Shown here in pieces: positions 5,743 through 8,007 of a DNA stretch of 64,000 bases (position 1 is its first letter; each line of letters begins with the position of its first letter). The notes under the pieces were generated by a model. The model did no database searches. It was not told the DNA's origin and was given only the letters and a program-made list of their open reading frames with translations. A program made the position numbers and the translations under genes. The DNA is from Pseudomonadota bacterium (GTDB lineage: Bacteria > Pseudomonadota > Gammaproteobacteria > RBG-16-57-12): NCBI GenBank assembly GCA_040752855.1, contig JBFMHP010000017.1, positions 81,960-145,959 on the forward strand. The letters are read 5' to 3'.

Positions 5743-8007
5743 TTACTCCGCGCACTCGCACGGCGGGCAAGGCGGACACGGTTGCGACAAGGCAAAGCCG
5801 TCGTGCGCGAAGTCATCCAAGTGCGACAACCGGCTGTATCCGTCGGTCGCCCGCGCCCACACGTGCAGTGCTTCGGAGAATGCCGCGCGATCACAGGGGC
5901 CGAGCAGCGTCATCACCGCAAACGACTCCTGATAATCACTCGGCGGCGCCAAGGTGTAGGCGTGCGAGGCGTCGTCCGTGGCCACCGACGCGGCCCCGCC
6001 CTTGCCCGAGGCGCTCGCGGCGCTGACGGTTGTGCTCACGCCGCGCACCACACTGAACCGGAAGTCGGCAAACCCGTTGGGATGATGGGCCTCGAAATGC
6101 AGATTCGCCGTGGCGCCGGGGCCGTATTCGATGAATCCGCACGGTGTGATCGTCAAGCCCGTGCCGCTGACCGGCGCCACCGTCGCCGCACAGCAGTTGT
6201 TATCCACACGCAGCACCATGCGAAACGCCAAGGTGTGGCCGGCCGCGTTCTTGATGCGGTTGTAATCCGGCGCGCTCACCGCCGTCACGCTGCCCGTGCC
6301 GAAGGGCGCCGGTACATTGGTGACCTGCGGATCGATGCCTTCGGCCGTCCAGTCGACCAGGCTGCCATCCTGTTTGAACAACTCCAGCTTGAGCTCGTAT
6401 TTTCCCGCCGCGTCGAGCGCCTTTTCACAGTCGGTGGCGCCGCTGCCCAGCAGATGGCTCATGAAGTGCGCACTGGCGAGATCCTCGCGCTCGTCGACCA
6501 CGGTCCACTCGATGCCGCCGGCCGGCACGGCGCTCGGCTTGATCTCGAAGAGATTGGTCTGCGCGCCGATGGTCTGCGGCCCCAGCACGTACGGCTCGTG
6601 CGTGATGCCGCCGCCGGAGGCCGGCTTGGCGTAGTGGCGCACCACCGTGCGGGTCAGCGGTGTCCATGGACCGGGCGTGCCCAGCGCAGCGCCATCGCCC
6701 GTGGTGAGGCGCCGATACGACCAGCGATAGTATTTGATGTTCTTCACATTGCGCAGGCAATCGCGGCTGAACCACACGCGCGGTTCGAGCTTGCCGCCGA
6801 AGGGACGGCCGTCGGTAGTCTGCCCTTCATCGGCGGACGTCGCGCCAGGGCCATGGATCTCCGACATGCTGACCTGGTGTCCGATCGAGAGCATCTGCAC
6901 CACGCAGCCCGGCAGATCGGGTTCGTCATCGCAGGCGGGCACGCGATCATCGTTGACATGAATCGTCACCTCTGTGCCGCAGGCATAATCCCAGTAGGTA
7001 TTGCAGGCAATCGGCGGGTGATACACGGTCTCCAGCACGCCGCCGATCTCATATTCAACCCAGAAGTACAGGTCGGGTTTATCGCCCGCGCACAGATACG
7101 GCACGATGGCCTGGAAACGCCCCAAGCTGTCGGTGGTCACCACGGTGATCTCGTCGCAGCGGAAGCGCCACCACCAGGGCCACAGACACAGATACGGGAT
7201 GATCAGATGCACGTTGTCGACCAGCGTCTGGCGCACGATCTGCGCGGAGGGAGATTGCAAGGCCGTTTGCGACTGCACCGGGAGCGCGCTCAACAGCGCC
7301 GCTTGAGGACTCAGCTTCGCGCTGGGCACCTCGGGCTGCGGATTGAGCCGGCTGGAGATCATGCGCGTGGCGCTCGACAAGCGCTGCGTGGCGGGACGCA
7401 CGCCGCGTCCCATGACCGATGCGCCGCGTATCAGATCGACCTTGATCGGCCATGGATCAGGCTCGGGGCGCGGCGGTCGCGGAATCGGCGGTTCGCGCAG
7501 CACCTCCAGCAGATCATCGCGCAGGCGGAAGATCTCGATCTCCGGTAGCGTCAGTATCCAGCGCCACACCTTGTCCACTTCGCAGATATGCACCTTCGCA
7601 CCGCACACCGGGCGGCCACTGCCAGTCTTCACCACCCGGCCACGCACCCAGCAGAAGCAGATCGGCCAATGATCGATGATGATGCCGGGCACCAGGATGG
7701 TGTCGATTAGCTTGCCGCCCACACGCACTACCGGCTCAAAGGCGCCGAGGCGTTGCATCATCTTGATGCTTGGCTCGATCTTGACGAGATTCTCCGGCAC
7801 GGGGGCGATATACAAACGGCTGCGCCCGATCTCCTGCTCGCTGCGCGCAAACGACAGACGACCATCCTTGACCTCAGCCGCCTCCATCAAATTGCCCGCG
7901 CTATCAAATAAAAACCCCGCCGTGGCGCCTTTGAATTCCGGCCGCTCCTGATATGAAATCTTAAATGTCACCCCTTTGCCCGGGACATTCGCAGTGGGCT
8001 TTGCCAT
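5743..8007 (-). CDS. Hypothetical large cytoplasmic protein, 754 aa, Cys/Trp-rich, C-terminal CPPCPPCEC tail. No recognisable family.
   Basis: Uninterrupted 754-aa ORF with balanced composition; the overlapping 649-aa plus-strand ORF is an Arg-rich antisense artefact. No signal peptide, no Walker A motif. The motif VRGRVVKTGSGRPVCGAKVHI resembles a carboxypeptidase-regulatory-like beta-sandwich signature (pattern only). HFEAHHPNGF is a possible metal site. Confidence 0.7.
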   Translation of the reverse strand: MAKPTANVPGKGVTFKISYQERPEFKGATAGFLFDSAGNLMEAAEVKDGRLSFARSEQEIGRSRLYIAPVPENLVKIEPSIKMMQRLGAFEPVVRVGGKLIDTILVPGIIIDHWPICFCWVRGRVVKTGSGRPVCGAKVHICEVDKVWRWILTLPEIEIFRLRDDLLEVLREPPIPRPPRPEPDPWPIKVDLIRGASVMGRGVRPATQRLSSATRMISSRLNPQPEVPSAKLSPQAALLSALPVQSQTALQSPSAQIVRQTLVDNVHLIIPYLCLWPWWWRFRCDEITVVTTDSLGRFQAIVPYLCAGDKPDLYFWVEYEIGGVLETVYHPPIACNTYWDYACGTEVTIHVNDDRVPACDDEPDLPGCVVQMLSIGHQVSMSEIHGPGATSADEGQTTDGRPFGGKLEPRVWFSRDCLRNVKNIKYYRWSYRRLTTGDGAALGTPGPWTPLTRTVVRHYAKPASGGGITHEPYVLGPQTIGAQTNLFEIKPSAVPAGGIEWTVVDEREDLASAHFMSHLLGSGATDCEKALDAAGKYELKLELFKQDGSLVDWTAEGIDPQVTNVPAPFGTGSVTAVSAPDYNRIKNAAGHTLAFRMVLRVDNNCCAATVAPVSGTGLTITPCGFIEYGPGATANLHFEAHHPNGFADFRFSVVRGVSTTVSAASASGKGGAASVATDDASHAYTLAPPSDYQESFAVMTLLGPCDRAAFSEALHVWARATDGYSRLSHLDDFAHDGFALSQPCPPCPPCECAE

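What the first reader, a model, noticed from the sequence alone, without database searches (positions are those of the whole stretch)
5743..8007. 754-aa Cys/Trp-rich cytoplasmic protein with CPPCPPCEC tail and no recognisable family
The protein has balanced composition, so it is real coding sequence; the overlapping plus-strand ORF is Arg-rich antisense. It has no signal peptide, no TM segment and no Walker, nuclease or protease motif.

Unusual sequence features:
- Trp clusters such as LCLWPWWWRFRCDE and HWPICFCWVRGR.
- Multiple Cys pairs: CNTYWDYAC, PACDDEPDLPGC, NNCCAAT.
- A possible metal site, HFEAHHPNGF.
- A C-terminal tail SQPCPPCPPCECAE that resembles metal-binding or redox motifs.

The stretch VRGRVVKTGSGRPVCGAKVHI loosely resembles the carboxypeptidase-regulatory-like beta-sandwich signature, so the protein may be built of Ig-like or beta-sandwich modules.

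Its own promoter region (8008-8250) and terminator (5653-5692) make it a stand-alone unit next to the 443-aa gene, which shares its CC-pair style.
Basis: partly seen in the sequence, partly recalled or inferred. Interest (0 to 1): 0.68.

Follow-up and report, generated by a model that had tools for sequence, protein, structure and literature searches.

The report
Unannotated cysteine-stapled beta-sandwich protein pair
The 754-aa gene is real and belongs to a large, strongly conserved protein family with no name, no known domain and no solved relative; it is scattered by horizontal transfer across some 15 phyla including methanogenic archaea, and it repeatedly pairs with the equally unknown 449-aa neighbour, so what the pair does is still open.

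Summary
ORF 5743-8007 (-) encodes a 754-aa protein (21 Cys, 17 Trp) under strong purifying selection (dN/dS 0.12), with its own promoter-like site, ribosome-binding site and terminator.

No library recognises it: Pfam, NCBIfam, PADLOC, PHROGs and PDB sequences all give nothing. Yet it has full-length relatives in at least 468 species genomes and about 950 clusters at 50% identity. The taxonomy is incongruent: it is 58-59% identical to methanogen and Chlorobi copies but only 41-47% identical to other Gammaproteobacteria.

Conserved cysteines are gained and lost as specific pairs (117-306, 135-359, 335-343). That pattern fits disulfides or two-coordinate sites, not Cys4 zinc sites. The CPPCPPCEC tail is not conserved.

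The 449-aa neighbour (B) is a second unknown family. A-superfamily genes sit beside B in 10 of 52 informative B loci, in both gene orders and at 24-33% identity, so the two are functionally linked.

Membrane-anchored subtilases and CHAT-TPR proteases recur nearby in a minority of loci. The function remains inferred. My best guess is a non-enzymatic, cysteine-stapled two-protein assembly.

The parts
5743..8007 (-). Gene A: 754-aa Cys/Trp-rich multi-beta-sandwich protein of an unannotated family (NCBI MEW5755766.1, 'hypothetical protein')
   Evidence: ORF. More than 947 homologues. 957 clusters at 50% identity, all with the same ~700-800 aa architecture. dN/dS 0.12. AlphaFold pLDDT 85.6, pTM 0.71.
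7693..7980 (-). Residues ~10-105: N-terminal small beta-sandwich module
   Evidence: Strands E13-18, 29-34, 40-45, 50-53 and 64-69 with pLDDT about 90. The domain boundaries are inferred.
7570..7680 (-). Residues ~110-146: first half of a transthyretin/CarboxypepD_reg-like sandwich (CFCWVRGRV...PVCGAKVHICEVD), carrying C117, C119, C135, H140 and C142
7159..7569 (-). Residues 147-283: insertion made of helices 147-171, a disordered Pro-rich loop 178-236 (window 7300-7476) and helices 234-275. It carries one degenerate copy of the family's NPQP(E/L)PP motif at residue 222.
   Evidence: pLDDT below 50 for residues 178-236. The motif occurs in 107 of 260 members in 1-5 copies, 163 occurrences against 5 in shuffled sequences.
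6922..7158 (-). Residues 284-362: second half of the split sandwich (RCDEITVVTTDSLGRF...PDLYFWVEY...CNTYWDYAC), carrying C284, C306, C335, C343 and C359
   Evidence: Cys pairs 117-306 and 135-359 link this half to the first half.
5785..6903 (-). Residues ~369-741: C-terminal array of beta-sandwich modules with the most conserved motifs (GGKLEPRVWFSR, YYRWSYRR, AAGKYELKLELFK, RVDNNCC, CGF, HPNxFA, RAAFSE), including C606, C623, H642 and C705
   Evidence: pLDDT mostly above 90. Invariant columns. Only Ig-like, pilin-like or MG-like domain matches.
5746..5784 (-). Residues 742-754: the CPPCPPCECAE tail, a lineage-specific appendage
   Evidence: Absent from most homologues. Its cysteines are conserved in 2-7% of the superfamily.
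5655..5694 (-). Intrinsic terminator of gene A (GC-rich hairpin followed by T8)
   Evidence: Read directly from the sequence. Not picked up by the consensus scan.
8015..8151 (-). Promoter-like site (8124-8151) and GAGGAG ribosome-binding site (8015-8020) of gene A. They are preceded by the terminator of the upstream gene at 8264-8301.
   Evidence: Consensus matches only; function was not tested.
4117..5466 (-). Gene B: 449-aa (443 aa from the ATG at 5448) partner of a second unannotated family. It has invariant N-terminal CC, a CX3CX2C motif (C394/C398/C401), C-terminal CC, a Gly-rich loop and a C-terminal coiled coil.

Best explanation
Gene A and its downstream neighbour B encode the two parts of an uncharacterised accessory protein module that is horizontally spread and separately regulated.

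Shown:
- A is a chain of beta-sandwich modules with no enzyme-like fold or motif.
- The conserved cysteines of A behave as specific pairs.
- A-family and B-family genes recurrently sit side by side.

Inferred:
- A's second module, a transthyretin/carboxypeptidase-regulatory-like sandwich, is interrupted by an insertion of about 140 residues. The insertion exposes a disordered Pro-rich loop carrying an NPQP(E/L)PP linear motif.
- The cysteine pairs 117-306 and 135-359 staple the two halves of the split module together. They do so most simply as disulfides, or alternatively as two-coordinate thiolate sites.
- H140, C142 and C284 form a separate small site.
- B oligomerises through its C-terminal coiled coil and binds A, giving a stable cysteine-cross-linked structural or binding assembly rather than an enzyme.
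- The complex does its work where thiols can oxidise: after release from the cell, at the envelope, or under oxidising stress.
- In the lineages that encode a membrane-anchored subtilase or a CHAT-TPR protease next door, the disordered loop is the likely processing site. The cysteine staples would hold the cut halves together.
For: The family is real and constrained:
- More than 947 full-length homologues and 957 clusters at 50% identity with one architecture.
- Relatives in 468 species genomes.
- dN/dS 0.12.

There is no enzyme or family signature.

Fold:
- AlphaFold pLDDT 85.6, mostly beta, with residues 178-236 disordered.

Cysteine pairing on 260 sequences:
- C117-C306 phi 0.77, jointly absent in about 30 separate clades. 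Parsimony gives 25+26 single-site changes against 35 joint changes.
- C135-C359 phi 0.67 (20+15 single against 24 joint).
- C335-C343 phi 0.52.
- Triad H140-C142-C284 phi about 0.6.
- Cross-pair controls are close to independent.

A-B link:
- The two genes are adjacent here and in the syntenic relative L005.
- They lie within 10 kb in L021, L041 and L049.
- L021 holds a divergent B'-A' pair: A' is 24% identical to A over its full length with profile E 7e-24, and B' is 44% identical to B.
- An A-superfamily gene sits directly beside B on the same strand in 10 of the 52 metagenomic B loci with at least 2.5 kb of flank. Both gene orders occur.

Protease theme:
- Peptidase_S8 is the commonest domain among A's immediate neighbours, 8 of 135.
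- The subtilases carry membrane anchors, signal peptides or lipoprotein signals.
- CHAT-TPR proteins occur in 8 of 80 A loci.
- L049 has CHAT, then a subtilase, then B', with A about 4.4 kb further on.

Linear motif: NPQP(E/L)PP is confined to the disordered insertion, 163 occurrences against 5 in shuffles.
Against: - None of 45 A or 36 B sequences has a signal peptide or hydrophobic N-terminus. The family also occurs in archaea and in diderm and monoderm bacteria at 58-60% identity. No shared export route is therefore evident, and an intracellular role remains fully possible.
- Most A loci (about 95% for canonical A) and about 80% of B loci lack the partner within reach.
- In the closest relative, L005, B is reduced to its last 84 codons while A is kept.
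- Protease neighbours occur in only a minority of loci. Most of the subtilase cases are one Chloroflexota lineage.
- I could not inspect model coordinates, so no Cys-Cys distance or site geometry has been measured.
- The split-domain reading rests on motif order, secondary structure and a non-significant profile match.
- The B model is mediocre (pLDDT 67.9).
- No physical A-B interaction was predicted or measured.
Confidence: 0.35

Rival explanations
1. A, and B with it, is a cytoplasmic metal-binding or thiol-redox protein. The conserved Cys and His residues bind Zn, Fe-S or Cu(I), or cycle between thiol and disulfide as a stress sensor or buffer. The beta-sandwich array is the scaffold.
For: - No export signal in any member.
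- A co-varying His-Cys-Cys triad, H140/C142/C284, next to invariant acidic residues E143, D145 and D285.
- An invariant CX3CX2C motif plus two CC motifs in B.
- A Cys-rich tail in this lineage.
- The family is frequent in anaerobes and sulfur or methane cyclers such as Chlorobiaceae, Chromatiales, Desulfocapsaceae and methanogens.
- A thioredoxin-2 gene lies about 750 bp beyond B.
- Pairs of cysteines could each form a two-coordinate Cu(I)- or Hg(II)-type site.
Against: - The cysteines are gained and lost as independent pairs, not as four-ligand sets.
- The tail is not conserved.
- The RND pumps that recur beside A are heterogeneous multidrug-type pumps, not CzcA/CusA heavy-metal pumps.
- There are no Pfam metal-binding or radical SAM hits.
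- The thioredoxin sits in a separate unit beyond a tRNA gene.
Confidence: 0.25
2. A-B is the effector part of a protease-gated conflict or cell-death system, analogous to bacterial gasdermins that are activated by neighbouring caspase-like or subtilase proteases. A CHAT-TPR or subtilase protease would cut the disordered loop of A, or cut B, to switch on a toxic or defensive activity.
For: - Subtilase is the top immediate-neighbour domain.
- CHAT-TPR occurs in 8 A loci, with an ECF sigma/anti-sigma-like pair in L059.
- L049 has CHAT, then a subtilase, then B', with A a few kilobases on.
- Distribution is patchy and HGT-like.
- IS elements flank the gene in L004, L021 and L088, and a tRNA-Ser lies next to the pair here.
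- A carries a conserved disordered loop with a linear motif.
Against: - No PADLOC model hits A, B or the small neighbours.
- Neither model resembles gasdermin or any pore-former.
- The subtilases are extracytoplasmic while A and B have no export signal.
- More than 85% of loci have no protease nearby, and the neighbours are mostly housekeeping or regulatory genes, not defence islands.
- The family is essentially absent from phage and plasmid collections.
- Sequence conservation is far higher than is usual for conflict-system effectors.
Confidence: 0.12
3. A is an enzyme with a new active site built on a beta-sandwich, for example a Cys-His-acid site at H140/C142/C284 with E143, D145 or D285, or a site at VDNNCC/HPNxFA. 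B would be its regulator or substrate carrier.
For: - Invariant polar residues cluster in short motifs: HICEVD, RCDE, VDNN(C)C, HPNxF, EPRVWFSR.
- The H140-C142-C284 triad is lost together in some subfamilies, as happens in pseudo-enzymes.
- Conservation is very high.
Against: - There is no match to any enzyme family by sequence or whole fold.
- C142 is replaced by Tyr or Trp, and H140 varies, in many otherwise intact members.
- No metabolic genes are conserved nearby.
Confidence: 0.13
4. The ORF is not a functional gene. It is a chance high-GC ORF, or a fusion of pseudogene fragments.
For: The DNA is about 62% G+C, so long spurious ORFs are common. The 649-aa antisense ORF is one example.
Against: - Hundreds of full-length, collinear homologues share the same architecture.
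- dN/dS is 0.12.
- The AlphaFold model is confident.
- The gene has its own ribosome-binding site and terminator.
Confidence: 0.01

Closest known systems
Carboxypeptidase-regulatory-like / transthyretin-like (prealbumin-fold) beta-sandwich domains (Pfam CarboxypepD_reg PF13620, TTR-52; e.g. the TTL domain of human carboxypeptidase D, PDB 5aq0)
   Different: No significant HMM match: nothing for the window protein at E up to 1, and only single weak hits in 55 diverse members. The module appears split by an insertion of about 140 residues and is studded with conserved cysteines. It covers only about 15% of the protein. This fold is a passive module that says nothing about function.
Multi-domain Gram-positive pilins and MSCRAMM adhesins built of CnaA/CnaB Ig-like domains (e.g. 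SpaA, BcpA, FimP, T6)
   Different: A has no signal peptide. I see no LPXTG sorting motif or pilin motif in the sequence. There is no sortase neighbour. The family occurs in diderm bacteria and archaea. The matches are to individual domains only.
Protease-gated effectors such as bacterial gasdermins, encoded next to caspase-like (CHAT/C14) or subtilase proteases fused to TPR or other repeat sensors (recalled from the literature, not read here)
   Same: A minority of A and B loci carry a CHAT-TPR protein and/or a subtilase directly beside the gene. A has an exposed disordered loop that could serve as a cleavage site.
   Different: No gasdermin-like fold. No PADLOC hit. The proteases are absent from most loci and are predicted to be extracytoplasmic. 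Conservation is much higher than in known defence effectors.
DUF4139 / 'mucoidy inhibitor MuiA family' proteins (Pfam PF13598), relevant to partner B only
   Same: UniProt's automatic pipeline names one B-family member (P0397, 61% identical to B) 'DUF4139 domain-containing protein'. From memory, DUF4139 proteins also combine beta-rich regions with a coiled coil.
   Different: Pfam hmmscan found no DUF4139 match in B at E up to 1 or in B' at E up to 0.01. None of the 120 listed B homologues has a precomputed Pfam domain. DUF4139 is itself functionally uncharacterised: the searchable library holds only four papers, each mentioning it once.

Membership tests
Pfam CarboxypepD_reg (PF13620) / transthyretin-like domain family | Significant match to the family HMM (gathering score 32.3 bits) | tested here: not met
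   No Pfam hit for the window protein at E up to 1. Among 55 diverse superfamily members, one CarboxypepD_reg hit at E 0.09 and one TTR-52 hit at E 6e-4.
Pfam CarboxypepD_reg (PF13620) / transthyretin-like domain family | Prealbumin-like seven-stranded beta-sandwich fold | tested here: met
Pfam CarboxypepD_reg (PF13620) / transthyretin-like domain family | Contiguous domain of about 80 residues | tested here: inconclusive
   The sequence signature is interrupted between residues 146 and 284. A spliced profile aligns across the junction with the 5ek8_A sandwich, but only at E 1.1.
Known anti-phage defence systems (PADLOC-DB 2.0), including gasdermin-type protease-gated effectors | Match of a component to a defence-system HMM | tested here: not met
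   No PADLOC hits for A, B or the two small upstream ORFs at E up to 1.
Known anti-phage defence systems (PADLOC-DB 2.0), including gasdermin-type protease-gated effectors | Gasdermin or other pore-former fold in the effector | tested here: not met
Known anti-phage defence systems (PADLOC-DB 2.0), including gasdermin-type protease-gated effectors | Obligate adjacency of the activating protease | tested here: not met
   Subtilase in 8 of 135 immediate neighbours. CHAT-TPR in 8 of 80 loci. No protease near A or B in this window.
   Tail cysteines 744-752 are conserved in 2-7% of members, and many homologues lack the tail.
   The cysteines covary as specific pairs (117-306, 135-359, 335-343), and different pairs behave independently. 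Only H140/C142/C284 behave as a larger set.
Sec/Tat-exported surface proteins (pilins, adhesins, S-layer proteins) | N-terminal signal peptide or membrane anchor | tested here: not met
   None of 45 A and none of 36 B sequences has a hydrophobic N-terminal window.
DUF4139 (PF13598), for partner B | Significant match to the Pfam HMM | tested here: not met
   No Pfam hit for B at E up to 1 or for B' at E up to 0.01. The only support is a UniRef name on one member.
Radical SAM enzymes, for partner B's CX3CX2C motif | Radical_SAM (PF04055) domain or TIM-barrel-like fold around the CX3CX2C motif | tested here: not met

The most novel reading that the evidence does not exclude
A and B are the subunits of a previously unrecognised, horizontally mobile protein machine shared by bacteria and archaea. 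It would be a cysteine-cross-linked assembly that is made without a signal peptide. It would become active only after proteolytic nicking of A's disordered loop and/or oxidation. That would make it either a new kind of protease- or redox-gated effector (cell death, defence or kin interaction) or a new self-assembling extracellular or envelope structure with an unconventional release route.
Probability: 0.15. Interest if true: 0.85.

Novelty: categorically new. Interest (0 to 1): 0.6.

Why it matters
These two proteins are large, strongly conserved and evolving slowly. B is 60-76% identical across phyla and A is 40-85% identical. They occur in hundreds of species from about 15 phyla, including methanogens, and every database calls them 'hypothetical protein'. 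None of the four libraries searched here (Pfam, NCBIfam, PADLOC, PHROGs) has a model for them, and no structure has been solved.

That combination usually marks a function that is important where it is present. Wide horizontal spread, strong purifying selection, individual regulation and recurrent pairing together point that way.

The work here turns a single odd ORF into a defined and testable target:
- a two-family module with mapped domains;
- specific predicted cysteine pairs and a candidate H/C/C site;
- a conserved linear motif in an exposed loop;
- candidate partner proteases;
- cultured hosts in which it can be studied (Aquincola tertiaricarbonis, Lysobacter enzymogenes Lj46, Pseudoduganella violaceinigra DSM 15887, Sphingomonas sp. 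JC676, Sphingobium sp. CECT 9361; Chlorobium phaeovibrioides for B).

Tried and rejected
1. Family assignment by sequence. Pfam, NCBIfam, PADLOC and PHROGs on A, B and the small neighbours gave nothing. A permissive Pfam scan of 55 diverse A-superfamily members gave only scattered single weak beta-sandwich hits.
2. PDB sequence searches with single sequences and with profiles A1, A4, A2 and the spliced A5 gave nothing significant.
4. Obligate operon with B: rejected. B lies within 10 kb in only 4 of 80 A loci.
5. Phage or plasmid origin: rejected. A has one hit at the edge of a provirus prediction and B has none. Neither occurs on PLSDB plasmids.
6. Sigma-54 control. bEBP genes recur nearby, but a -24/-12 promoter is present upstream of A only in L084. 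It is not general.
7. Link to heavy-metal efflux. The RND pumps beside A in 8 loci are heterogeneous multidrug-type pumps, not CzcA/CusA.
8. A riboswitch or RNA element around the genes. Rfam finds only the tRNA.
9. A second paralogue in the window. The 755-aa ORF at 36275-38542 has a ClpA-like N-terminus and does not match the A profile.
10. Apparent decay of A in L005. The 'frameshift' is a 10-N scaffold gap.
11. The DUF4139 lead for B. It was not reproduced by hmmscan, and the literature is uninformative.
12. Literature searches for CHAT/CHASE2/FecR and for subtilase/CHAT/TPR contexts found nothing relevant.
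Full report
**1. The observation**

All quoted motifs are present at residues 113-124, 121-141, 273-286, 335-343, 357-368, 603-609, 637-646 and 741-754. The protein has 21 Cys (2.8%) and 17 Trp (2.3%). The overlapping 649-aa plus-strand ORF is 15.9% Arg and 15.1% Ala, the usual antisense artefact of 62%-GC DNA.

The gene has a GAGGAG ribosome-binding site at 8015-8020 and a promoter-like site at 8124-8151. 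This follows a strong terminator of the preceding gene (8264-8301). A clear hairpin-plus-T8 terminator lies at about 5655-5694; I read it directly, because the scanner missed it owing to one bulged base. No member of the family has a hydrophobic N-terminus (0 of 45).

Codon comparison with the syntenic relative L005 gives dN 0.097, dS 0.817 and dN/dS 0.12. This is a genuine protein-coding gene under selection, not a chance ORF or a fused pseudogene.

**2. It belongs to no described family**

Pfam, NCBIfam, PADLOC and PHROGs return nothing for the protein, even at E up to 1. Searches of PDB sequences return nothing significant, whether with the single sequence, the family profile or a broader superfamily profile. 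A permissive Pfam scan of 55 divergent superfamily members gives only isolated weak hits to generic beta-sandwich models (TTR-52, CarboxypepD_reg, PKD, Big, MG) and no consistent family.

**3. Yet the family is large, conserved and horizontally spread**

- The 5.8-billion-protein search finds more than 947 relatives. The top 120 are almost all full-length at 45-73% identity, all are 'hypothetical', and none has a Pfam domain.
- An exhaustive profile search finds 957 clusters at 50% identity. Those listed nearly all share one architecture of about 700-800 aa, with no fusions to known domains.
- Among one genome per species (185,579 species), 468 stretches encode a relative. These span Gamma-, Beta-, Alpha- and Deltaproteobacteria, Chlorobiota, Chloroflexota, Acidobacteriota, Gemmatimonadota, Nitrospinota, Actinomycetota, Zixibacteria, WOR-3 and Myxococcota, plus the methanogens Methanolinea and Methanothrix.
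- Identity does not follow taxonomy. The window protein, from a Chromatiales-like gammaproteobacterium, is 58-59% identical to the methanogen and Chlorobiaceae copies but only 41-47% identical to those of Kangiellaceae or Lysobacter.
- The family is not carried by the phages or plasmids that have been sampled.
- G+C of the gene matches the surrounding genome, so this copy is not a recent arrival.

**4. Anatomy**

AlphaFold2 with a 45-sequence alignment gives a confident model: mean pLDDT 85.6, pTM 0.71. It is almost entirely beta.

- Residues about 10-105 form a small N-terminal sandwich.
- A strand pair at 116-144 carries CFCWVRGRV...PVCGAKVHICEVD.
- Helices follow at 147-171.
- A disordered Pro-rich loop spans 178-236 (pLDDT about 35).
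- Helices follow at 234-275, including the Trp-rich LCLWPWWW stretch.
- Strands at 284-351 carry RCDEITVVTTDSLGRF...PDLYFWVEY.
- About 380 residues of further sandwiches follow, at pLDDT mostly above 90.

The disordered insertion carries a short linear motif, Phi-N-P-Q-P-(E/L)-P-P. It occurs in 107 of 260 members in 1-5 copies, always at this location, with 163 occurrences against 5 in shuffled sequences. The window protein has one degenerate copy at residue 222.

**5. The cysteines**

Twelve cysteines are conserved across the superfamily: 117, 119, 135, 142, 274, 306, 335, 343, 359, 606, 623 and 705. The four cysteines of the CPPCPPCEC tail are conserved in 2-7% of members, and many homologues end before the tail.

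I analysed presence and absence of each cysteine on 260 sequences, with these results:

| Positions | phi | Note |
|---|---|---|
| C117-C306 | 0.77 | 191 both, 47 neither, 22 single |
| C135-C359 | 0.67 | |
| C335-C343 | 0.52 | |
| H140-C142-C284 (triad) | about 0.6 | co-vary as a set |

A tree-aware count shows this is not one inherited event. C117 and C306 are jointly absent in about 30 separate clades: 25 and 26 single-site changes collapse to 35 joint changes. C135-C359 collapses from 20+15 to 24. Cross-pair controls (117/135, 306/359, 117/359) behave almost independently.

Ligands of a Cys4 zinc or Fe-S site should be lost as a set. Specific, independently dispensable pairs are the signature of disulfides, or less likely of two-coordinate thiolate sites. 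Both main pairs join the first half of the split module to the second half, across the disordered loop. I could not access model coordinates, so distances are untested.

**6. The neighbour**

B (4117-5466; 449 aa, or 443 aa from the annotated start) is a second family without annotation.

- It has more than 2099 relatives at 58-76% identity across Pseudomonadota, Chlorobiota, Planctomycetota, Acidobacteriota, Chloroflexota, Zixibacteria and a Euryarchaeota MAG, none with a Pfam domain.
- It has invariant cysteines: CC20-21, C30, C65, C235, a CX3CX2C motif at 394/398/401, and CC438-439.
- It has a conserved Gly-rich loop and a C-terminal coiled coil.
- One member carries the UniRef name 'DUF4139 domain-containing protein'. 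I could not reproduce that with Pfam, and DUF4139 is itself uncharacterised.

**7. Are A and B linked?**

They are not an obligate operon. B lies within 10 kb of A in only 4 of 80 genomic A loci. In the syntenic relative L005, B is reduced to its last 84 codons.

The link is nevertheless real.
- L041 (Gemmatimonadales) has the pair in a different orientation.
- L021 carries a divergent B' (44% identical to B) followed immediately by a divergent A' (24% identical to A over the full length, profile E 7e-24), in addition to a canonical A.
- Among 80 metagenomic B loci, 10 of the 52 with at least 2.5 kb of flank have an A-superfamily gene directly beside B on the same strand, in either order. The full-length copies aligned are 23-33% identical to the window protein.

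Adjacency that recurs between divergent members of two families, in unrelated lineages and in both orders, is standard evidence of a functional partnership.

**8. Other neighbours**

There is no universal neighbour.

- The commonest Pfam domain among the 135 genes immediately flanking A is Peptidase_S8, at 8 genes. In Chloroflexota the order is CHAT-TPR, subtilase, A. L049 (Thermoanaerobaculaceae) has CHAT, subtilase, B' and, a few kilobases on, A. These subtilases have membrane anchors, signal peptides or lipoprotein signals.
- CHAT-TPR proteins occur in 8 A loci.
- Regulators recur: sigma-54 activators in 8 loci, BTAD activators and a DUF1360 membrane protein upstream of B, Crp-like proteins, and an anti-sigma-like protein. 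Sigma-54 promoters are not general.
- The RND pumps seen beside A in 8 loci are of mixed multidrug type and are probably coincidental.
- In this window the upstream genes are a FecR-TPR protein, a CHASE2 cyclase and a Crp-family regulator. They are syntenic in L005, but nothing shows that they belong with A.

**9. Interpretation**

Three things are shown:
- A is a real, conserved, unannotated multi-sandwich protein.
- Its cysteines behave as specific pairs.
- It is recurrently paired with a second unannotated family.

Everything about mechanism is inference.

I favour, at confidence about 0.35, a non-enzymatic, cysteine-stapled A-B assembly. It would function where thiols oxidise. In some lineages neighbouring extracytoplasmic proteases would process it at the disordered loop.

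The main rivals are these:
- a cytoplasmic metal or redox protein (about 0.25), favoured by the lack of any export signal and by the H/C/C triad;
- an enzyme with a new active site (about 0.13);
- a protease-gated conflict effector (about 0.12).

The absence of a signal peptide in a family shared by archaea and by diderm and monoderm bacteria is the strongest objection to any extracellular reading. The pairwise cysteine covariation is the strongest objection to a simple zinc or Fe-S reading. I cannot reconcile the two with the present tools.

**10. Novelty and verdict**

No family or system that I tested claims this protein, and only its individual modules have known folds. As a system it lies outside every known kind. 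What is new at this stage is a well-defined unknown, not a demonstrated mechanism. Interest is 0.6: this is a solid 'dark matter' target with concrete, testable predictions, but no function has been shown.

Noticed in passing
window 3506-3594 (-): A tRNA-Ser (anticodon TGA) lies about 520 bp downstream of gene B, between B and a thioredoxin-2 gene (2924-3367, Zn-ribbon plus thioredoxin domains). tRNA genes are common island integration sites, but I saw no integrase or flanking repeat, and the arrangement is syntenic in L005.
   Followed up: partly
window 9576-16347: A signalling cluster lies upstream of A. It comprises a 1141-aa FecR + TPR protein with a C-terminal region ending in ...YYLTVEWRF (an outer-membrane-barrel-like ending), a 739-aa CHASE2 + adenylate/guanylate cyclase, and a divergently transcribed Crp-family cNMP-binding regulator. 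The first two are conserved in synteny in L005 (the Crp gene lies beyond the stretch compared). No link to A/B has been shown.
   Followed up: partly
window 8001-10000: A low-GC patch (0.51 against about 0.62) lies between A and the FecR-TPR gene. It holds a 190-aa ORF (8315-8887; no family hit, but about 75% DNA identity in L005, so probably real). It also holds a 130-aa lipoprotein-like ORF (9022-9414) that is not conserved in L005.
   Followed up: partly
L005:12487-12834 (Chromatiales MAG, closest syntenic relative): Gene B is reduced to its last 84 codons; about 1150 nt are missing relative to the window. A is intact apart from a 10-N scaffold gap. This is either a real deletion of B or a misassembly.
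   Followed up: partly
L021:816-4457: A divergent B'-A' pair (44% and 24% identity to B and A) lies 5.5 kb from a canonical A in the same gammaproteobacterial MAG. A B12-binding radical SAM gene and a DDE transposase lie between them.
   Followed up: partly
L069:12308-14578; also L039, L057, L061, L062, L068: In Sphingomonadales and Acidobacteriota, A is followed directly by one to three further unannotated genes. X1 is about 240-290 aa and Cys-containing. X2 is about 267 aa, with a CxxxxCxxxCxxxxCxxxxC stretch and a long hydrophobic segment. X3 is about 216 aa, with cupredoxin-like sequence patterns by eye. None has a Pfam hit.
   Followed up: partly
L089, L117, L119, L122, L145 (upstream of B); L097, L117, L119, L145, L146: In soil metagenome loci, B is often preceded by a small DUF1360-like membrane protein (about 130-160 aa) and a BTAD-domain transcriptional activator.
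   Followed up: partly
window residues 178-236 of A (7300-7476) and homologues: A conserved linear motif, Phi-N-P-Q-P-(E/L)-P-P, is repeated up to five times in the disordered insertion of 41% of family members. The binding partner or protease that recognises it is unknown.
   Followed up: partly
window 36275-38542 (-): A 755-aa ORF of almost the same length as A. Its N-terminus is ClpA-like and it is unrelated to A.
   Followed up: yes
L001:7591-8630 and L059:12393-13466: Fasciclin-domain genes (extracellular adhesion modules) lie within 2 kb of A in Aquincola and in a Promineifilaceae MAG. The numbers are too small to judge significance.
   Followed up: no
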